A stretch of 64,000 nt of DNA from Escherichia coli (GCF_036507355.1 NZ_AP027877.1); one strand, 5' to 3'; counted from the first letter of the stretch, positions 8,197-20,088 are shown. The notes: generated by a model not told the origin, from the sequence alone. Translations and numbers: made by a program.

Positions 8197-9126
8197 TTAA
8201 TCCAGCGTTGGATTCATGTGCCGTAGATCGTATGGCGTGATCTGATAGACGTAATAGTTGAGCCAGTTGGTAAACAGCAAATTACCGTGACTACGCCAGC
8301 TCGCTCGCGGTGTATTTTGCGGATCATTGTGCGGGAAATAGTTATACGGTACTTCCGGGTCTAGTCCGGCTTCCACATCGCGGAAAAATTCCTGCGCCAG
8401 CGTTTGCGCATCATATTCGGGATGGCCCGTCACAAAGGCAATGCGCTTATCTTTACTGGCAAACAGATATGCATCCCCTTCTTCCGTCTCTGCCAGAATT
8501 TCCAGATCGGTGTAATCACGAATCAACGCTGCCGGAAAGTCAGCATAGCGCGAATGCGGTGCCAGGAATGAATCATCAAAGCCACGCGTCAGAAGCGCAT
8601 GAGGATGGAGAATATGATGCTCGTAAACGCCAGAGAGTTTGTCGGTGCGAGTTTGCTTAGGAATGCCGTAGAGGATATTGAGCGCGGCCTGTACCGCCCA
8701 GCAGACAAACAGCGTCGAGGTGACGTGATCTTTCGACCACTCCAGCACCTGTTTGATCTGCGGCCAGTAAGCAACATCATTAAACTCCACCAGGCCCAGC
8801 GGCGCACCGGTTACAATCAGACCGTCAAAGTTCTGTTCCTGAATATCTTCAAAGTTACAGTAGAAGTTGTTCAGATGCTCTGCGGGCGTGTTGCGCGATT
8901 CACGGGAATCGATGCGCAACAGCTGAATATCGACCTGCAAAGGTGAGTTTGAAAGCAGGCGCAGAAACTGATTTTCAGTTTCAATCTTCTTCGGCATCAG
9001 GTTAAGGATAAGCACCTTTAGCGGACGAATTTCCTGACCAGACGCGCGAGAAGTTGTCATTACAAAGACGTTTTCTTCACGCAAGAAATTGACGGCGGGT
9101 AGCTCGTCCGGCACACGAATCGGCAT
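8197..9126 (-). CDS. metA: Homoserine O-succinyltransferase (309 aa)
   Basis: ORF translation [53 protein letters not shown]. Confidence 0.94.
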
Positions 9127-9282
9127 AACCTGATTACCTCACTACATACGCTTATACGTTTAGACATCCAGATAGCTGAAGATAACCAGAAAATTTGCCA
9201 ATGTCGAGCCTGCATGTTGAAGGTGAGAAAGTTTCAAGGAAAAGACTACGTTAGAATATAAGAATGACTAAAAGGAGAGAAA

Positions 9283-9726
9283 ATGGTTATTAGTATTCGC
9301 CGCTCGCAGCATGAAGAGAGTGAAAAACTGATTGCGATTTGGTGTCGCTCGGTCGATGCCACCCACGATTTTTTGTCCGCAGAGTATCGGGCCGAACTGG
9401 AAGAACTGGTGCGTTCCTTTCTGCCGGAAGCACCGTTGTGGGTCGCGGTTAATGAGCGGGAACAGCCGGTTGGGTTTATGTTGTTAAGTGGGCAGCATAT
9501 GGATGCGCTGTTTATCGATCCTGATGTGCGCGGCTGCGGCGTGGGCCGGATGCTGGTGAAGCATGCGCTCTCAATGGCCCCGGAACTGACAACCAACGTT
9601 AATGAGCAAAATGAGCAGGCGGTTGGGTTCTATAAGAAGGTGGGTTTTAAGGTTACGGGACGCTCTGAGGTGGACGATTTGGGGAAACCGTATCCGTTGC
9701 TGAATCTGGCGTATGTGGGGGCGTAG
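9283..9726 (+). CDS. yjaB: GNAT-family N-acetyltransferase YjaB (147 aa)
   Basis: ORF translation MVISIRRSQHEESEKLIAIWCRSVDATHDFLSAEYRAELEEL...; aaaaggagag RBS upstream; divergent from metA. Confidence 0.9.
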   Translation: MVISIRRSQHEESEKLIAIWCRSVDATHDFLSAEYRAELEELVRSFLPEAPLWVAVNEREQPVGFMLLSGQHMDALFIDPDVRGCGVGRMLVKHALSMAPELTTNVNEQNEQAVGFYKKVGFKVTGRSEVDDLGKPYPLLNLAYVGA

Positions 9727-9789
9727 GTGATTTTTTTCTCATCCCGGTGGGCTGAACTTCAGGTTTCGTACCCACCAATGGTGACACGA

Positions 9790-10173
9790 TTATTTCTGCT
9801 TAAGCATTGCCATGACCGCACTATCACTGAGTACCGCTGATTGCGCATGGATGTGGAACTGGCGATATTTCATTAACGTTGCCCCAGCGACCACTTCATG
9901 GAGAATGCGTTCCTCAACCTGTGACAAACCGCCCTCATTCATTTCCAGCGCGCTCACAACAATATCCATACGTTTTGCTGGCAAAAAAGAATGCCAGGTT
10001 GAACGTGGGTGGAGTTGCAGAACAAGATCTTGCAGAACTTTTTCTGCAACAAAGAAATTGGCGATTAACAGGCGCTGGTTACTGAAGGCAGCGTCTCCTG
10101 ACACTTCACGTTTGCTTTCAAGATCGCGAACAGTAATTTGATTACGACGAATTTGGATATACAGAACTGACAT
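9790..10173 (-). CDS. yjaA: YjaA stress-response protein (127 aa)
   Basis: ORF 9790..10209 contains MSVLYIQIRRNQITVRDLESKREVSGDAAFSNQRLLIANFF; start taken at internal MSVLY (reverse-complement ATG at 10171-10173). Confidence 0.88.
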   Translation of the reverse strand: MSVLYIQIRRNQITVRDLESKREVSGDAAFSNQRLLIANFFVAEKVLQDLVLQLHPRSTWHSFLPAKRMDIVVSALEMNEGGLSQVEERILHEVVAGATLMKYRQFHIHAQSAVLSDSAVMAMLKQK

Positions 10174-10207
10174 GAGATTCCCTTCATCATGCAAATAATT
10201 GATATGC

Positions 10208-10240
10208 AAAAAACCCCGGCCTTATGGACCGGGGTTTTTC
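10208..10240 (-). terminator. rrnE operon terminator
   Basis: Minus-strand AAAAACCCCGGTCCATAAGGCCGGGGTTTTTT immediately 3' of 5S rRNA. Confidence 0.75.
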
Positions 10241-10247
10241 TAATTTG

Positions 10248-10367
10248 ATGCCTGGCAGTTCCCTACTCTCGCATGGGGAGACCCCACACTACCATCGGCG
10301 CTACGGCGTTTCACTTCTGAGTTCGGCATGGGGTCAGGTGGGACCACCGCGCTACGGCCGCCAGGCA
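10248..10367 (-). rRNA. rrfE: 5S ribosomal RNA
   Basis: Reverse-complement is the canonical E. coli 5S sequence (TGCCTGGCGGCCGTAGCGCGGTGGTCCCACCTGACCCCATGCCGAACTCAG...CATGCGAGAGTAGGGAACTGCCAGGCAT), 120 nt. Confidence 0.97.
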
Positions 10368-10460
10368 AATTCTGTTTTATCAGACCGCTTCTGCGTTCTG
10401 ATTTAATCTGTATCAGGCTGAAAATCTTCTCTCAATCCGCCAAAACAGCTTCGGCGTTGT

Positions 10461-13363
<2,903 letters not shown>

Positions 13364-13556
13364 TCACAACCCGAAGATGTTTCTTTCGATTCATCATCGT
13401 GTTGCGAAAATTTGAGAGACTCACGAACAACTCTCGTTGTTCAGTGTTTCAATTTTCAGCTTGATCCAGATTTTTAAAGAGCAAATATCTCAAACATCAC
13501 CCGAAGATGAGTTTTGAGATATTAAGGTCGGCGACTTTCACTCACAAACCAGCAAG

Positions 13557-13632
13557 TGGCGTCCCCTAGGGGATTCGAACCCCTGTTACCGCCGTGAAAG
13601 GGCGGTGTCCTGGGCCTCTAGACGAAGGGGAC
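13557..13632 (-). tRNA. gltV: tRNA-Glu (UUC) in 16S-23S spacer
   Basis: Reverse-complement GTCCCCTTCGTCTAGAGGCCCAGGACACCGCCCTTTCACGGCGGTAACAGGGGTTCGAATCCCCTAGGGGACGCCA, 76 nt. Confidence 0.96.
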
Positions 13633-13717
13633 GTATCAGTCTGCTTCGCAAGACGCCTTGCTTTTCACTTTCTATCAGACAATCTGTGTGAGCACTACAA
13701 AGAACGCTTCTTTAAGG

Positions 13718-15259
<1,542 letters not shown>

Positions 15260-15442
15260 AAAAATTTGATGCTCAAAGAATTAAACTTCGTAATGAATTA
15301 CGTGTTCACTCTTGAGACTTGGTATTCATTTTTCGTCTTGCGACGTTAAGAATCCGTATCTTCGAGTGCCCACACAGATTGTCTGATAAATTGTTAAAGA
15401 GCAGTTGCGACGCGGCTTTCAGCTCACTGTCGCGAGGTGGCG

Positions 15443-15581
15443 TATATTACGCTTTCCTCTTTCAGAGTCAACCCTGAATTTCAGAATTTTTCTCTTCAAC
15501 CGAACCGGCTGTTTATGTGAAGTGATTCACATCCGCCGTGTCGATGGAGGCGCATTATAGGGAGTTCTCCGCAGGCCGCAA
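15443..15581 (-). promoter_or_regulatory. rrnE tandem promoters P1 and P2
   Basis: Minus strand: P1 TTGCGG-N-TATAAT (-35 15576-15581, -10 15554-15559); P2 TTGACT-N-TAATATA (-35 15466-15471, -10 15443-15449). Confidence 0.7.
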
Positions 15582-15752
15582 TAGAAAAATTGCAGAAAAA
15601 TGACTGACTGCTGCATTCCCCAGCAAAAGCCCGCTTTATACCTTTTTACGCACAGAGTTATCCACAATCATCAATGTAATTTCTGTATTTTTCCCACGGT
15701 AACCACTGTCAAAATTGTGATCACCATTGAAAGAGAAAAATTCGCGAGCGTT

Positions 15753-15768
15753 GCGCAAACGTTTTCGT
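15753..15768 (+). promoter_or_regulatory. PurR operator (PUR box) upstream of purHD
   Basis: gcgcaaacgttttcgt matches the PurR consensus aCGCAAACGtTTtCnT; followed by tacaat -10-like hexamer. Confidence 0.7.
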
Positions 15769-15875
15769 TACAATGCGGGCGAAAAATAAGGATGCCCCGT
15801 TAGGGGCGTTAGCTGAGTTTTTCGCGAAAAATTCAGCTAACGCTCTCTGTAATAGTCAAATCCAGGGGATTTACC

Positions 15876-17465
15876 ATGCAACAACGTCGTCCAGTCCGCC
15901 GCGCTCTGCTCAGTGTTTCTGACAAAGCCGGTATCGTCGAATTCGCCCAGGCACTTTCCGCACGCGGTGTGGAGCTGCTGTCTACAGGGGGCACTGCCCG
16001 TCTGTTAGCAGAAAAAGGTCTGCCGGTAACCGAAGTTTCCGATTACACCGGTTTCCCGGAGATGATGGATGGACGCGTGAAGACCCTACATCCGAAAGTA
16101 CATGGTGGCATTCTGGGCCGTCGCGGTCAGGACGATGCCATTATGGAAGAACATCAGATCCAGCCTATCGATATGGTGGTTGTTAACCTGTATCCGTTCG
16201 CCCAGACCGTGGCCCGTGAAGGCTGCTCGCTGGAAGATGCGGTTGAGAACATCGATATCGGCGGCCCGACCATGGTGCGCTCCGCCGCTAAGAACCATAA
16301 AGATGTCGCAATCGTGGTGAAGAGCAGCGACTACGACGCCATTATTAAAGAGATGGATGCCAACGAAGGATCGCTGACGCTTGCAACCCGTTTCGACCTC
16401 GCCATCAAAGCCTTCGAACACACTGCCGCCTACGACAGCATGATTGCCAACTACTTCGGCAGCATGGTTCCGGCTTACCACGGTGAAAGCAAAGAAGCCG
16501 CCGGTCGCTTCCCACGCACGCTGAACCTGAACTTCATTAAGAAGCAGGATATGCGTTACGGCGAGAACAGCCACCAGCAGGCTGCCTTCTATATAGAAGA
16601 GAATGTGAAAGAAGCCTCCGTTGCTACCGCAACCCAGGTTCAGGGTAAAGCCCTCTCTTATAACAACATCGCCGATACCGATGCGGCGCTGGAGTGCGTG
16701 AAAGAGTTCGCCGAGCCGACATGTGTGATTGTGAAGCACGCCAACCCTTGCGGCGTGGCTATCGGCAATTCCATTCTTGATGCTTACGATCGCGCGTACA
16801 AAACCGACCCAACCTCCGCATTCGGCGGCATCATTGCCTTTAACCGCGAGCTGGATGCGGAAACCGCACAGGCCATCATTTCTCGTCAGTTTGTCGAAGT
16901 GATTATTGCGCCTTCCGCCAGCGAAGAAGCCCTGAAAATCACCGCCGCCAAGCAGAACGTACGCGTTCTGACCTGCGGTCAGTGGGGCGAGCGTGTTCCG
17001 GGTCTTGATTTCAAACGCGTGAACGGCGGTCTGCTGGTTCAGGATCGTGACCTGGGGATGGTCGGTGCGGAAGAACTGCGCGTCGTCACCCAACGTCAGC
17101 CGACCGAACAGGAACTGCGTGATGCGCTGTTCTGCTGGAAAGTGGCGAAGTTCGTGAAATCCAATGCTATCGTCTATGCCAAAAACAATATGACCATCGG
17201 TATTGGCGCGGGCCAGATGAGCCGCGTGTACTCCGCGAAAATTGCCGGTATTAAAGCTGCCGATGAAGGTCTGGAAGTGAAAGGTTCCTCTATGGCCTCC
17301 GATGCATTCTTCCCGTTTCGTGACGGTATTGATGCTGCCGCTGCCGCAGGCGTGACCTGTGTGATCCAGCCTGGCGGTTCTATTCGTGATGACGAAGTGA
17401 TTGCCGCTGCCGACGAGCACGGTATTGCAATGCTCTTCACCGATATGCGCCACTTCCGCCATTAA
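15876..17465 (+). CDS. purH: Bifunctional AICAR transformylase / IMP cyclohydrolase (529 aa)
   Basis: ORF translation [54 protein letters not shown]. Confidence 0.95.
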
Positions 17466-17476
17466 TGGAGCGACAG

Positions 17477-18766
17477 ATGAAAGTATTAGTGATTGGTAAC
17501 GGCGGGCGCGAGCACGCGCTGGCCTGGAAAGCGGCCCAGTCGCCGCTCGTTGAAACGGTTTTTGTTGCTCCGGGTAATGCAGGCACTGCACTGGAACCTG
17601 CGCTGCAAAACGTCGCCATCAATGTGACCGATATTCCGGCACTGCTGAGCTTTGCGCAGAATGAAAAAATTGACCTGACCATCGTTGGCCCGGAAGCGCC
17701 ACTGGTGATTGGCGTCGTTGACGCGTTCCGCGCAGCAGGTTTGAAAATATTCGGACCGACTGAGGGCGCCGCGCAACTCGAAGGTTCTAAAGCGTTTACC
17801 AAGGATTTCCTGGCACGCCACCACATCCCAACAGCGGAATACCAGAACTTCACCGAGATTGAGCCTGCGCTGGTGTATCTGCGCGAGAAAGGTGCACCGA
17901 TCGTTATCAAAGCAGACGGTCTGGCGGCGGGTAAAGGCGTAATCGTCGCGATGACACTCGAAGAAGCCGAAGCGGCCGTTCACGACATGCTGGCGGGTAA
18001 CGCTTTTGGCGACGCAGGTCACCGCATTGTTATCGAAGAATTCCTCGATGGCGAGGAAGCGAGCTTTATTGTGATGGTTGACGGCGAACACGTGTTACCG
18101 ATGGCCACCAGTCAGGATCATAAACGCGTGGGTGATAAGGACACCGGGCCAAACACAGGCGGAATGGGCGCTTACTCTCCTGCGCCGGTAGTGACTGATG
18201 AAGTTCATCAGCGCACGATGGAGCGCATCATCTGGCCAACCGTGAAAGGCATGGCAGCGGAAGGTAACACGTATACCGGTTTTCTGTATGCGGGCCTGAT
18301 GATCGACAAACAGGGCAATCCGAAGGTTATCGAATTCAACTGCCGCTTTGGCGATCCGGAAACCCAGCCGATTATGCTGCGCATGAAGTCCGATCTGGTT
18401 GAGCTTTGCCTGGCGGGCTGTGAAGGCAAGCTGGACGAAAAAAAATCCGAGTGGGATGAACGCGCATCGCTAGGTGTGGTGATGGCTGCGGGCGGTTATC
18501 CGGGTGATTATCGCAAGGGCGATGTGATCCACGGCCTGCCGCTGGAAGAAGTGGCAGGCGGCAAAGTGTTCCACGCGGGCACAAAACTGGCGGATGACGA
18601 GCAGGTGGTAACCAGCGGCGGGCGCGTACTGTGCGTCACCGCGCTGGGTCATACCGTGGCAGAAGCGCAGAAACGCGCCTACGCCTTAATGACCGATATC
18701 CACTGGGATGATTGCTTCTGCCGGAAAGATATCGGTTGGCGCGCCATCGAACGCGAGCAGAACTAA
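17477..18766 (+). CDS. purD: Phosphoribosylamine-glycine ligase (429 aa)
   Basis: ORF 17465..18766 contains MKVLVIGNGGREHALAWKAAQSPLVETVFVAPGNAGTA; start taken at MKVLV (ATG 17477), 12 bp after purH stop. Confidence 0.94.
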   Translation: MKVLVIGNGGREHALAWKAAQSPLVETVFVAPGNAGTALEPALQNVAINVTDIPALLSFAQNEKIDLTIVGPEAPLVIGVVDAFRAAGLKIFGPTEGAAQLEGSKAFTKDFLARHHIPTAEYQNFTEIEPALVYLREKGAPIVIKADGLAAGKGVIVAMTLEEAEAAVHDMLAGNAFGDAGHRIVIEEFLDGEEASFIVMVDGEHVLPMATSQDHKRVGDKDTGPNTGGMGAYSPAPVVTDEVHQRTMERIIWPTVKGMAAEGNTYTGFLYAGLMIDKQGNPKVIEFNCRFGDPETQPIMLRMKSDLVELCLAGCEGKLDEKKSEWDERASLGVVMAAGGYPGDYRKGDVIHGLPLEEVAGGKVFHAGTKLADDEQVVTSGGRVLCVTALGHTVAEAQKRAYALMTDIHWDDCFCRKDIGWRAIEREQN

Positions 18767-20088
18767 CGCGACAGTTTTGCCAATAGCGTTTTGCGCGTGA
18801 TCCCTAACTGACGGGCGGCTTCGGTTTTGTTGCCGCCCGTTTTCTCCAGTGCCGCCAGAATCACTTCTTTTTCGACTTCCACCAGCGGCTGAATATCCTG
18901 ACTTTGCCCCAGCGGGATCGGCGTACCGGCAATCGCCAGCGGCAGCTCGCGTTCGGAAATATATTCCCCGGTCAGCAGCACCACCGCCCGTTCCACCGCG
19001 TTTTCCAGTTCACGAATATTTCCCGGCCAGTCGTAGTGGATCAGCAAATCCATCGCCTGTGGCGTAAAGCCTTTTACCGCCTTGCGATTACGCTCGGCAA
19101 AGCGCTGAAGAAAATGGCCAGCCAGCAGAGGGATATCTTCCCTCCGTTGCCGCAGCGATGGTACTTCAATCGCCACCACATTCAGGCGATAGTAGAGATC
19201 CTGGCGAAAACGCCCGGCATTCACCTCTGCGGCAAGATCGCGATGGGTCGCCGCAATCAGCCGGACATCAACCGAGATAGTCTGGTTGCTACCGACACGC
19301 TGAACTTCGCGCTCCTGAATCGCACGCAGCAGACGCACCTGCATCATCGGCGAGATATCGCCAATTTCATCGAGAAACAGCGTGCCGCCGTCCGCCTCAA
19401 CAAAGCGCCCTTCCCGGCGTTTATCGGCTCCGGTAAACGCCCCTTTTTCGTGACCGAACAATTCAGATTCCAGCAAGGATTCGTTAAGTGCCGCACAGTT
19501 GAGCGTTACCAGCGGTTTTTCGCTACGTGCGCTACTGGCGTGAATCGCCTTGGCGACCAGCTCTTTACCGGTGCCGGAATCGCCGTGGATCAGCACCGTG
19601 GCTTCCGATGGCGCGACGAGGGAGATTTCACTGAGCAGGTGTTGCATCGCCGGGCTTTTACCGACCATACCGAACTGGCTGGCAGTCACCGCAGGTGTTT
19701 CAGCATCAATACTGTGTGTATGCGCGAGCGCCTTTTCCAGCGTCGCCTGTAGGTTATCGAAATCCAGCGGCTTGATGAGATAATCCAGCGCCCCAGTTTT
19801 CAGTGCCTCTACCGCCGTCTCGACGCTGGAGTACGCAGTCATAATCAGCACCGGAATTGCCGGGTTTAACGCTTTGATCTCTTTCAGCGTGGCGATGCCG
19901 TCCATCTCCGCCATTCGCACATCGCAAAGCACAAGATCAAAAACCTGTTCCCGCACCTGCTCCAGCGCCTGTCGCCCGCTGTTCGCCAGCGCGACGTTAT
20001 AGCCCCAGCCTCGCAGTAAAGCCTGCAAAATAGTGCAGTGGCTAATGTCATCATCCACCACCAGAATATCGATATTATCGTGCGTCAT
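18763..20088 (-). CDS. zraR: Sigma54-dependent response regulator ZraR/HydG (441 aa)
   Basis: ORF translation [44 protein letters not shown]... with [11 protein letters not shown]+ motif; ATG overlaps zraS stop (ATGA). Confidence 0.94.

What the first reader, a model, noticed from the sequence alone, without database searches (positions are those of the whole stretch)
15790..15845. Long near-perfect palindrome in the purH leader just upstream of the start codon
Between the PurR box (15753-15768) and the purH ATG (15876) there are two adjacent inverted repeats: gccccgttaggggc (15793-15806) and a ~17-bp-arm palindrome gcgttagctgagttttt-cgcg-aaaaattcagctaacgc (15806-15843, one mismatch). A hairpin this long in a 5' UTR or promoter-proximal region could be a protein-binding site or an RNA structure affecting purHD translation or stability. 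I do not recognise it as a described regulatory element.
Basis: seen in the sequence. Interest (0 to 1): 0.3.

Follow-up and report, generated by a model that had tools for sequence, protein, structure and literature searches.

The report
Conserved RNA hairpin in purHD leader
The palindrome is real and forms a long RNA stem-loop in the untranslated leader of the E. coli purine-synthesis operon purHD; it is kept by compensating mutations across enteric bacteria, its job has never been worked out, and the best guess is a processing or stability signal.

Summary
Window 15806-15843 is a 19-nt-arm inverted repeat. As RNA it is a 17-bp stem with a CGCG loop, or 20 bp if GGG 15803-05 pairs with UCU 15844-46. 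It is the only such repeat in the 64-kb window. It lies between the PurR-controlled purH promoter and the purH ATG (15876) of E. coli, divergent from rrnE.

It is single-copy and nearly invariant in 5,419 E. coli genomes. In 37 species of Enterobacteriaceae, Erwiniaceae, Yersiniaceae and a Brenneria the stem persists. 89% of cells pair (about 40% in slid controls) and 12 of 17 pairs have compensatory changes. The apex varies from 4 to 68 nt, and the stem is never shorter than 19 bp. G·U pairs and a covariance model favour the purH-strand RNA over a DNA site.

No Rfam family matches, and a 2024 review of purine regulation does not mention the element.

Its function is not established. My best guess (about 0.35) is a double-strand-specific processing or stability determinant, probably for RNase III. 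PurH protein falls 2-5 fold in RNase III-null strains, but no cleavage site has been mapped. Modelling did not support ribosome-binding-site occlusion. Interest is modest.

The parts
15753..15768 (+). PurR operator (PUR box) gcgcaaacgttttcgt of the purHD promoter
   Evidence: Sequence. The core GCAAnCGTTTkC is found upstream of purH in 35 of 37 enteric species, always followed directly by the -10 hexamer. PurR occupancy of purHD is reported by ChIP-chip in PMC3159470.
15769..15774 (+). -10 hexamer TACAAT. The inferred transcription start is about 15781-15782, giving a leader of about 95 nt.
   Evidence: TA(C/A/G)AAT is conserved at a fixed position next to the PurR box in the orthologues. The start site is an inference from the usual spacing of about 7 nt; no published map could be reached.
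15794..15807 (+). Hairpin 1: GCCCC-GUUA-GGGGC, 5 G-C pairs. Its 3' arm overlaps the base of the long stem and its extension.
   Evidence: A hairpin of >=5 bp abutting the long stem is present in 28 of 37 species, against 8% of shuffled sequences (binomial P about 2e-23). Loops vary and some arms change on both sides, for example GCCUC/GAGGU, UCCCG/CGGGA and CCCCC/GGGGG.
15803..15805 (+). GGG that can pair with UCU 15844-15846. This extends the long stem to 20 contiguous pairs and excludes hairpin 1.
   Evidence: 20-nt perfect helix GGGGCGTTAGCTGAGTTTTT when G·U is allowed. (energies: hairpin 1 + 15 bp = -29.7 kcal/mol; extended 22-bp form = -28.8). GGG and UCU are >=90% or 100% conserved columns in A1.
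15806..15822 (+). Left (5') arm of the long stem, GCGUUAGCUGAGUUUUU
   Evidence: The base positions CGUUA and CUGA are >=90% conserved across 36 species.
15823..15826 (+). Apical loop CGCG. This is the position of the hypervariable apex, 4 to 68 nt in other genera.
   Evidence: apex lengths and sequences. (folds).
15827..15843 (+). Right (3') arm of the long stem, AAAAAUUCAGCUAACGC
   Evidence: 12 of 17 pairs show changes on both sides, and 89.1% of cells are paired.
15844..15849 (+). Conserved pyrimidine tail UCUCUG. UCU is invariant in 36 species and is the partner of GGG 15803-05.
   Evidence: T63, C64 and T65 invariant. (the extended pairing appears in most minimum-energy folds).
15858..15872 (+). 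Local hairpin AAAUCC-AGG-GGAUUU holding the Shine-Dalgarno GGGGA (15865-15869)
   Evidence: it appears in the 25-30 C folds. (SD region conserved as CCAGGGGAU or CCAAGGGAU). (SD opening cost of about 3.5-5 kcal/mol whether or not the long hairpin is present).
15876..17465 (+). purH coding sequence (529 aa), followed by purD at 17465-18766
   Evidence: ORFs. (annotated purH in RefSeq E. coli genomes).

Best explanation
Shown: the palindrome is the DNA image of a long RNA stem-loop in the roughly 95-nt 5' untranslated leader of the purHD mRNA. That mRNA is transcribed from the PurR-repressed promoter just upstream. A short G+C hairpin, a 19-34 bp stem with a free-evolving apex, and an invariant GCUCU tail are kept by selection across enteric families.

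Inferred: the stem works after transcription as a determinant that is recognised because it is double-stranded. The most likely enzyme is RNase III, which needs about two helical turns. Cleavage in the stem, or protection from it when hairpin 1 forms and shortens the stem to 15 bp, would set how much PurH is made from each transcript, independently of PurR. The available data suggest that processing favours expression.

I give about 0.9 to the RNA-structure part and about 0.35 to the RNase III processing or stability mechanism.
For: Location: the element lies between the PurR box and -10 hexamer and the ATG.

RNA-level selection: 89.1% of cells pair, against 33-44% with slid partners. 12 of 17 pairs change on both sides, and 0 of 500 shuffles reach any measure.

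Strand: pair 36:51 is G·U in 18 species, A-U in 15 and G-C in 3, and is never broken. Further U·G pairs occur at four other positions. These pair only in the + strand RNA. The covariance model scores the + strand at 71.5 bits and the - strand at 26 bits.

Apex: 4-68 nt, unrelated in sequence between genera.

Length floor: the main stem has 19-34 bp (median 21) in all 37 species, despite sequence turnover and up to 8 internal defects. In E. coli there are 20 contiguous pairs. The published in-vivo RNase III rules describe a duplex with 11 positions on each side of the two staggered cuts, and paired, G-C-rich positions between them (PMC6212723).

Competing fold: hairpin 1 and the 20-bp form use the same five nucleotides and are nearly isoenergetic.

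Experiment by others: in TMT proteomics of RNase III-null strains, PurH is 0.20x in rnc-14 stationary phase and 0.48x in rnc-38 exponential phase. In the rnc-38 sheet it is listed next to AdhE, which from my own knowledge is a known case of RNase III-dependent translation. PurC is 0.71x, PurF 0.79x and 1.04x, and PurD 0.95x (PMC7373196 Table S2). The K-12 and B laboratory strains have a leader identical to the window's.
Against: No RNase III cleavage in the purH leader is reported in the datasets I could read. The only site in the purH-rrsE spacer in PMC5371410 belongs to the rrsE leader (that file was truncated when stored). The supplements of PMC6212723 are not held.

No p19-captured dsRNA maps there in the held part of PMC7373196 Table S3. 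That test is weak, because a 17-20 bp hairpin would not give 21-22 nt duplexes.

The proteomic effect has inconsistent replicate p-values (0.0035, 1 and 0.014; then 0.94, 0.007 and 0.15). PurH is absent from two of the four sheets. In rnc-14 stationary phase PyrB, PyrI and CarB fall as much, so the effect may be an indirect nucleotide-pool response. PurD, from the same operon, is unchanged in the one sheet where it appears.

The E. coli stem is at the lower limit of RNase III substrates. About half the species carry a C·C or C·U mismatch at stem position 8, and Erwiniaceae add a G·G at position 10.

Sequence conservation at the stem base (CGUUA, CUGA, UAACGCUCU) exceeds what a pure double-strand signal needs and is unexplained.

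Modelling shows no consistent gain in Shine-Dalgarno accessibility after simulated cleavage, so the route from cleavage to more PurH is not identified.
Confidence: 0.35

Rival explanations
1. Passive stabiliser. The two leader hairpins act only as a structural obstacle that hinders 5'-end-dependent attack or scanning by RNase E, as 5' stem-loops do in ompA mRNA. This lengthens purHD mRNA life, with no specific cleavage and no regulation.
For: Structure rather than sequence is conserved in the upper stem and apex. The hairpin is very stable, -16 to -46 kcal/mol with a median of -27. No processing site or premature 3' end is reported in the datasets I could read. Vibrionaceae purH leaders carry an unrelated long hairpin at a similar distance from the ATG, as expected if any stable stem will do.
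Against: Twelve to thirteen unpaired A-rich nucleotides precede hairpin 1, so the 5' end itself is not protected. An obstacle would not need at least 19 bp in every species. It would also not need invariant bases at the stem foot and tail. This reading does not account for lower PurH in RNase III-null strains, unless that effect is indirect.
Confidence: 0.25
2. Translational switch. Hairpin 1 (CCCC:GGGG) and the extended stem (GGG:UCU) are alternative folds. In the extended fold the freed CCCC 15795-98 pairs with the Shine-Dalgarno GGGG 15865-68 and blocks ribosome binding. Some signal (temperature, a protein or a small molecule) shifts the balance.
For: The minimum-energy fold of the E. coli leader and of most orthologues shows exactly this arrangement. 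The energies are -29.7 kcal/mol for the SD-free state and -34.7 for the sequestered state. The CCCC:SD pairing probability is about 0.5 at 37 C. All four elements (CCC, GGG, UCU and the SD) are conserved.
Against: The four elements are nearly invariant, so there is no covariation to support the long-range pair. Any C-rich arm will complement a G-rich SD. The cost of opening the SD is the same with the full leader, with the long hairpin deleted, and in a 3' fragment (means 4.21, 4.49 and 4.25 kcal/mol; Wilcoxon P = 0.14 and 0.68), because a local hairpin (15858-15872) occludes the SD anyway. Predicted SD pairing barely changes between 25 and 45 C (0.36 to 0.56). The long stem itself would be unnecessary for this mechanism.
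Confidence: 0.12
3. Transcription attenuator. The long stem followed by the pyrimidine-rich tail acts as a weak intrinsic terminator that stops a fraction of transcripts before purH. Hairpin 1 or the 5' GCGAAAAA (15779-86, complementary to UUUUUCGC 15818-25) would act as an antiterminator.
For: Alternative pairings exist (repeat I3). In Yersiniaceae and Erwiniaceae the tail is more U-rich, for example CUCUUUAUUG and CUCUUAUUUAUUU.
Against: The E. coli tail UCUCUGUAAUAG has no U run, and the + strand was not called by the terminator scan. The stem foot has only three G-C pairs followed by an A/U-rich stretch. The tail UCU is itself paired in the extended stem. The GCGAAAAA/UUUUUCGC pairing involves the variable apex and is not conserved. 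No 3' end near purH appears in the held supplements of the E. coli Term-seq study (PMC7815308).
Confidence: 0.07
4. DNA-level element. The palindrome is an operator for a dimeric regulator (RbsR and PhoP are listed as purHD regulators), or a cruciform that absorbs supercoiling generated by the neighbouring rrnE promoters.
For: It is a near-perfect DNA palindrome 25-60 bp downstream of the promoter. RbsR and PhoP are listed for purHD (PMC10100675; PMC10912719). In Enterobacterales purH sits back to back with an rRNA operon.
Against: The spacing between half-sites ranges from 4 to 68 bp. G·U and U·G pairs are frequent and would be mismatches in DNA. The E. coli centre TTTCGCGAAA, the only part that resembles a LacI-type site, is not conserved even within Enterobacteriaceae. 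Its arrangement is the reverse of the AAACGTTT core of PurR- and RbsR-type boxes (my own knowledge). RbsR more plausibly uses the PUR box itself. The + strand scores far better than the - strand in the covariance model. Long non-palindromic apices would hinder cruciform extrusion.
Confidence: 0.05
5. No function. The palindrome is a neutral remnant, for example of an old insertion or a slipped duplication.
For: No phenotype or biochemical activity has been linked to it in anything I could read.
Against: It is >=99% identical in 5,392 of 5,419 E. coli genomes, while the rest of the spacer varies more. It has been kept with compensatory changes across at least three families. It is single-copy and not a dispersed repeat.
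Confidence: 0.03

Closest known systems
RNase III-processed leader hairpins of E. coli mRNAs (pnp, rnc, adhE 5' UTRs)
   Same: A long, nearly perfect stem-loop of about two helical turns in a 5' UTR, with little constraint on the upper stem and loop. The level of the encoded protein changes in rnc-null strains; PurH falls, as does AdhE in the same table.
   Different: No cleavage site has been mapped here. The stem foot and tail are conserved in sequence, which those substrates do not require. The E. coli stem is at the lower size limit. In pnp and rnc, cleavage lowers expression, whereas here the sign would be positive, as in adhE. The statements about pnp, rnc and adhE come from my own knowledge.
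5'-UTR stabilising stem-loops (ompA type)
   Same: Stable hairpins in a leader that are conserved as structure, with no ligand or terminator features.
   Different: ompA-type protection needs the hairpin at or within a few nucleotides of the 5' end (my own knowledge). Here about 12 unpaired nucleotides come first. The stem is also much longer than protection needs.
ZTP (pfl) riboswitch, which controls purH and folate genes in many other bacteria
   Same: A purH-specific leader RNA, separate from the general purine repressor, in a gene whose substrate (AICAR/ZMP) also comes from histidine synthesis. This is only a possible functional analogy.
   Different: There is no sequence or structure match: no Rfam hit at E<=1 in the window or in 17 other leaders. 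The E. coli stem is a continuous duplex with no internal loop that could form a pocket. The mismatches seen in other genera are not conserved.
PurR / LacI-family operators (PUR box)
   Same: An inverted repeat close to the purH promoter with a central CG.
   Different: It is 38 bp rather than 16 bp. It lacks the AAACGTTT core. The half-site spacing varies between species. It is conserved as RNA pairs rather than as DNA sequence. The real PUR box lies 38 bp upstream at 15753-15768.
Dispersed palindromic repeats (REP/BIME, ERIC, other MITEs)
   Same: They form long hairpins when transcribed, and they occur in intergenic regions.
   Different: This element has one copy per E. coli genome, at an orthologous position in all species. 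It has no similarity to other parts of the window.

Membership tests
Any described RNA family (Rfam 15, including ZTP/pfl, purine, PRPP and THF riboswitches) | A match to the family's covariance model at or near the gathering score | tested here: not met
   cmscan in E-value mode (<=1) over window 9000-20000 found only rRNA, tRNA and rrn-leader families and nothing at 15780-15875. The same holds for 17 orthologous or analogous loci. The only overlap is a sub-threshold miRNA-precursor hit on the perfect Yersinia hairpin, at 35 bits against a gathering score of 76.
RNase III substrate hairpin | A duplex of about two helical turns (about 11 positions on each side of the staggered cuts) | tested here: met
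   E. coli has 20 contiguous pairs. The main stem has 19-34 bp in all 37 species. The rule is taken from PMC6212723. E. coli is at the lower limit.
RNase III substrate hairpin | Mapped rnc-dependent cuts on both strands with a 2-nt 3' overhang | tested here: inconclusive
   No such site is in the tables I could read (PMC5371410, truncated file; PMC7373196 Table S3, truncated). The supplements of the main map (PMC6212723) are not held.
RNase III substrate hairpin | Expression of the gene depends on rnc | tested here: inconclusive
   PurH is 0.20x and 0.48x in two rnc-null proteomes, against 0.7-1.0x for PurC, PurF and PurD. Replicate p-values are inconsistent, and pyrimidine enzymes fall too.
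Intrinsic terminator / attenuator | A G+C-rich stem followed immediately by a U tract | tested here: not met
   The tail is UCUCUGUAAUAG, and no + strand site was called at the long stem. The stem is A/U-rich above three G-C pairs.
Intrinsic terminator / attenuator | RNA 3' ends just after the hairpin in vivo | tested here: inconclusive
   purH is absent from the four held supplementary files of the E. coli Term-seq study. purH is repressed in rich medium, and thresholds apply.
Leader-peptide attenuator | A conserved short ORF in the leader | tested here: not met
   The only in-leader AUG (15792, AUG CCC CGU UAG) has no spacing from its AAGG. The frame and length are not conserved, and many species have no AUG (read directly from the sequences).
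LacI-family (PurR/RbsR) DNA operator | A 16-bp inverted repeat with fixed spacing and an AAnCGnTT centre, conserved as DNA sequence | tested here: not met
   The centre is TTTCGCGAAA. Arm spacing is 4-68 bp across species, and the centre is not conserved. G·U pairs argue against DNA symmetry.
Dispersed palindromic repeat (REP/ERIC/MITE) | Many copies per genome | tested here: not met
   There is one locus per genome in 5,419 E. coli genomes. The second 'place' is the palindrome matching itself on the other strand.
SD-sequestering switch / RNA thermometer | The element changes the accessibility of the Shine-Dalgarno sequence | tested here: not met
   The SD opening energy is unchanged by deleting the hairpin or truncating the leader in 37 species (means 4.21, 4.49 and 4.25 kcal/mol, not significant). 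There is little temperature dependence. This is thermodynamic modelling only.

The most novel reading that the evidence does not exclude
The two-hairpin leader is an undescribed, purH-specific riboregulator of Enterobacterales, with a structural counterpart in Vibrionaceae. It would bind a protein or a metabolite linked to AICAR/ZMP or one-carbon status through its conserved stem foot (CGUUA..CUGA / UAACGCUCU). It would give PurR-independent control of purH and so fill the role that the ZTP riboswitch has in other bacteria.
Probability: 0.06. Interest if true: 0.75.

Novelty: new member of a known kind. Interest (0 to 1): 0.35.

Why it matters
purHD is a textbook operon, and its control is described only in terms of the repressors PurR and RbsR. 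PurH differs from the other purine enzymes because it must also clear the AICAR made by histidine synthesis, so a control layer independent of PurR would make sense. A leader structure kept for this long across enteric bacteria is a concrete and cheap target for testing post-transcriptional control of purine synthesis: a handful of arm and compensatory mutations in wild type and rnc mutants would do it. It is also a candidate for a new Rfam cis-regulatory family. If it proves to be only a stability hairpin or a routine RNase III site, the result is ordinary.

Tried and rejected
(1) Rfam search of the window and of 17 other leaders found no family.

(2) Dispersed-repeat idea: rejected, because the element is single-copy.

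(3) Term-seq supplements: no purH entry.

(4) RNase III maps: the only site in the purH-rrsE spacer belongs to the rrsE leader. Supplements of the main map are not held. A second rnc transcriptome paper has nothing on pur genes.

(5) p19 dsRNA table: the numeric hits were at 420,560 (proY), not at 4,205,6xx.

(6) SD-occlusion model: a plausible four-element toggle was seen in the folds. The accessibility calculation across 37 species showed no effect of the hairpin, so I demoted it.

(7) Homology of the Vibrionaceae leader hairpin to the enteric one: by eye the stem feet look alike. The enteric covariance model does not find the Vibrio hairpins even with filters off (best E = 1.5), so I treat them as analogous.

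(8) The covariance-model hit in Aggregatibacter (L065, E = 0.0035) is an ordinary terminator of the upstream gene.

(9) PhoP-box and RbsR-box readings of the left arm and centre: weak matches confined to E. coli and not conserved. The literature search gave no site location.

(10) uORF reading (AUG CCC CGU UAG): not conserved.

(11) Minus-strand terminator-like call at hairpin 1: the U run starts 5-6 nt after the stem, the strand has no known transcript, and the model prefers the + strand.

(12) The original 1989 and 1990 purHD papers and a dRNA-seq TSS paper could not be read. CsrA CLIP and leader/dyad-symmetry searches returned nothing useful.

Full report
CONTEXT. The window is Escherichia coli: the 341 bases around the finding are 100% identical to strain O145 RM9872 and are found in 5,419 of 5,426 complete genomes. 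An rRNA operon (16S at 13718-15259, 23S and 5S, all on the minus strand) runs leftward. purH (15876-17465) and purD (17465-18766) run rightward. This is the divergent rrnE-purHD arrangement.

The finding lies in the 110 bases between the PurR operator (15753-15768, gcgcaaacgttttcgt) and the purH ATG. The hexamer TACAAT (15769-15774) follows the operator directly. This puts the expected transcription start at about 15781-82 and makes everything up to 15875 a 5' leader of about 95 nt. The start site is an inference. The papers that mapped it (Aiba and Mizobuchi 1989; Flannigan et al. 1990, cited) and a dRNA-seq study are not in the library. The operator and -10 pair is conserved at the same place in 35 of 37 enteric species. 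No alternative promoter is evident between the palindrome and the ATG.

THE OBSERVATION. It is correct. Arms 15806-15824 and 15825-15843 are 19 nt long and 95% complementary with no spacer. As a hairpin this gives 17 pairs and a CGCG loop. The single mismatch, G15817 opposite T15832, is a G·U pair in the purH-strand RNA. It shares its last two bases with the long stem.

If G·U pairs are allowed, GGG 15803-05 pairs with UCU 15844-46 and the helix becomes 20 contiguous pairs. That form uses all five bases of the short hairpin's 3' arm, so the two folds exclude each other. Their energies are close: -29.7 kcal/mol for hairpin 1 plus 15 bp, and -28.8 for the extended form.

The palindrome is the only inverted repeat in the 64-kb window with arms of 15 nt or more, at most one mismatch and a spacer of at most 8 nt. 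Twenty dinucleotide shuffles gave at most a 15-nt arm, once. The leader folds 4 standard deviations better than shuffles.

IS IT A REPEAT FAMILY OR A KNOWN RNA? Neither. The 101-nt leader occurs once per genome; the second 'place' per genome is the palindrome matching itself on the other strand. It is at least 99% identical in 5,392 of 5,419 genomes, including K-12 and B derivatives. The rest of the spacer is only 90-95% identical in 314 genomes.

Rfam 15 searched at E<=1 gives nothing in the leader, and nothing in 17 other purH leaders. A 2024 review of purine-pathway regulation lists only PurR and RbsR for purHD and never uses the words hairpin, leader or attenuation.

From memory, and unverified here, the 1990 purHD paper noted two dyad symmetries in the mRNA leader that cannot form together. 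That matches what I find, but no function was assigned.

COMPARATIVE EVIDENCE. A scan of one genome per species with the first 200 residues of PurH gave 80 loci. In 36 enteric species plus the window, covering Enterobacteriaceae, Erwiniaceae, Yersiniaceae and a Brenneria, the leader has the same plan:
- a short C-rich/G-rich hairpin;
- directly after it, a long stem whose foot is conserved in sequence ((G)CGUUA-n-CUGA ... U-n-A-nn-UAACGCUCU);
- an upper stem that changes by compensating substitutions;
- an apex of 4 to 68 nt with no conserved sequence;
- an invariant UCU tail.

I aligned hairpin 1, the two 17-nt arms (with the apex replaced by a GAAA linker) and the tail for 36 sequences (A1), and counted pairs. 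89.1% of the 612 cells form standard pairs, against 33-44% when the partner is slid by 1-3 columns. 12 of 17 pairs show changes on both sides (4-6 in the slid controls). None of 500 shuffles reaches the observed value for any of the five measures.

Two caveats apply. I placed the left arm by best complementarity to the right arm, although the conserved GCGUUA anchors it in nearly all species. Related sequences can also beat shuffles without structure, which is why the slid controls matter.

Pair 36:51 is G·U in 18 species, A-U in 15 and G-C in 3, and is never broken. U·G pairs occur at four further positions. Such pairs exist only in RNA of the purH strand. On the opposite strand or in a DNA cruciform they would be C·A or A·C mismatches.

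A covariance model built from A1 scores the window's + strand at 71.5 bits and its - strand at 26 bits. The training sequences match by construction, so only the strand contrast is informative.

Hairpin 1 (5 bp or more, abutting the long stem) is present in 28 of 37 species, against 8% of shuffled sequences (P about 2e-23), with variable loops and some double changes in the arms.

Together these results argue for a selected RNA structure and against a DNA operator, whose half-sites could not tolerate 4-68 bp of variable spacing.

WHAT MIGHT IT DO? I tested several readings.

(a) Terminator or attenuator. The tail in E. coli is UCUCUGUAAUAG, with no U run. The scan calls no + strand terminator at the long stem. 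The tail is itself paired in the extended helix. The E. coli Term-seq supplements have no purH entry. This reading is unlikely.

(b) Leader peptide. The only AUG in the leader gives AUG-CCC-CGU-UAG with no usable ribosome-binding spacing, and it is not conserved. I rejected this.

(c) Shine-Dalgarno sequestration. Minimum-energy folds of E. coli and most orthologues pair the CCCC of hairpin 1 with the SD GGGG once the long stem is extended. The sequestered state is 5 kcal/mol more stable than the free one. This looked attractive. However, the elements are invariant, so covariation cannot test it. The direct calculation was negative: the cost of opening the SD is 4.21 kcal/mol with the full leader, 4.49 with the long hairpin deleted and 4.25 in a 3' fragment (37 species, not significant). 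A local hairpin (15858-15872) covers the SD in any case. Temperature has little predicted effect.

(d) Recognition as double-stranded RNA. The most telling regularity is a length floor. Despite complete turnover of the upper stem and apex, and up to eight internal defects, the main stem has 19-34 pairs (median 21) in every species. That is about two helical turns, the size RNase III needs. The in-vivo rules describe 11 positions on each side of the two staggered cuts, with paired, G-C-rich positions between them (PMC6212723). When hairpin 1 forms, the long stem shrinks to 15 bp. The competing fold could therefore gate cleavage; this step is my inference.

Independent data give some support. 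In TMT proteomics of two RNase III-null strains, PurH is 0.20x (rnc-14, stationary phase) and 0.48x (rnc-38, exponential phase, listed beside AdhE). PurC is 0.71x, PurF 0.79x and 1.04x, and PurD 0.95x (PMC7373196 Table S2).

The weaknesses are real:
- Replicate p-values disagree.
- PurH is missing from two of the four sheets.
- PyrB, PyrI and CarB fall as much in the same sample.
- PurD, from the same operon, is unchanged where it was measured.
- No cleavage site in the purH leader appears in the tables I could read, and the supplements of the main cleavage map are not held.
- Half the species carry a C·C or C·U mismatch at stem position 8, and Erwiniaceae a G·G at position 10.
- The strong sequence conservation of the stem foot and tail is more than a double-strand signal needs and remains unexplained.

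(e) Passive stabiliser against RNase E. This is compatible with the structure-only conservation of the upper stem and with the analogous hairpin in Vibrionaceae. It does not explain the 12 unpaired 5' nucleotides, the length floor or the conserved foot.

VERDICT. The feature is real, transcribed (by inference), and under selection as an RNA stem-loop on the purH strand; I put that at about 0.9.

Its mechanism is not established. I rank the readings as follows:
- RNase III-type processing or stability determinant, about 0.35;
- passive RNase E barrier, 0.25;
- translational switch, 0.12;
- attenuator, 0.07;
- undescribed ligand- or protein-binding riboregulator, 0.06;
- DNA site, 0.05;
- no function, 0.03.

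It is best filed as a new, uncharacterised member of a familiar kind, the structured 5'-UTR cis-elements, in a very well studied operon. The interest is modest. The element is easy to test, and it would merit a family entry, but nothing so far shows an unusual mechanism.

Noticed in passing
L043:1085-1170, and similarly L040, L044, L046, L048, L050, L053, L057, L058, L069; L049, L060, L062, L068, L070; L055: purH leaders of Vibrionaceae (Vibrio, Aliivibrio, Photobacterium, Grimontia) and Oceanisphaera also carry a long hairpin with a hypervariable apex, ending about 28-46 nt before the ATG (for example AAAGGUCUUUACCAAAACUGG...CAUUUUUGGCAAAUAUCUUU). It is highly conserved within Vibrio. It has no Rfam match and is not found by the enteric covariance model. 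Pasteurellaceae have short leaders with no hairpin.
   Followed up: partly
L032, L033, L035, L037, L031, L036, L027, L023 (apex of the long hairpin): In Yersinia, Rahnella, Serratia and Pantoea the variable apex repeatedly ends in a small palindrome of the type CUCUAUAUAGAG, sometimes duplicated. In Y. thracica this gives a near-perfect stem of about 30 bp (-45.7 kcal/mol). Its meaning is unknown.
   Followed up: no
PMC7373196 Table S2 (external data on window gene purH, 15876-17465): PurH protein is 0.20x and 0.48x in two RNase III-null proteomes, while PurC, PurF and PurD change little. The authors did not comment on it. PyrB, PyrI and CarB fall similarly in one of the samples.
   Followed up: partly
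window 15381-15614 (-); also L037:56-301, L024:715-971, L039:5-239: There is a sub-threshold match to the Rfam family Ysr197 (118 bits against a gathering score of 167). It covers the rrnE promoter and leader region upstream of 16S and recurs next to purH in other enteric loci. It probably reflects the conserved rrn leader rather than a separate sRNA.
   Followed up: no
window 13371-13479 (-): StyR-44 (RF01830) matches above its gathering score (123 bits), between the spacer tRNA and the 23S rRNA of the rrnE operon.
   Followed up: no
window 15713-15728: A small near-palindrome AATTGTGATCACCATT with a central GATC lies about 170 bp upstream of the rrnE P1 promoter and 40 bp upstream of the PurR box. 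It may be part of the Fis/UP region of rrnE or a chance match.
   Followed up: no
L038:480-612 (Photorhabdus caribbeanensis purH leader): The leader contains a roughly 120-nt insert (…GAATCCCTGGGAGCATAGCGAACTATGTGACCAGGGTGAGTGCAGCCAACAAAGAGGCAACTTGAAAGATAACGGGTATA…) that resembles an ERIC-type repeat. This is from memory of the consensus and was not tested. The enteric stem motif is absent there.
   Followed up: no
window 15794-15807 (-) strand: Read on the minus strand, hairpin 1 followed by AUCCUUAUUUUU was called terminator-like by the simple scan. No minus-strand transcript is known here, and the U run starts 5-6 nt after the stem.
   Followed up: partly
Alignment A1, columns 32:55 and 34:53 (window C15813:G15836 and G15815:C15834): Stem position 8 is a C·C or C·U mismatch in 17 of 36 species, and position 10 is G·G in the Erwiniaceae. 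The left-arm bases CUGA stay conserved throughout. This means a sequence constraint on one arm that is independent of pairing, and it is unexplained.
   Followed up: partly
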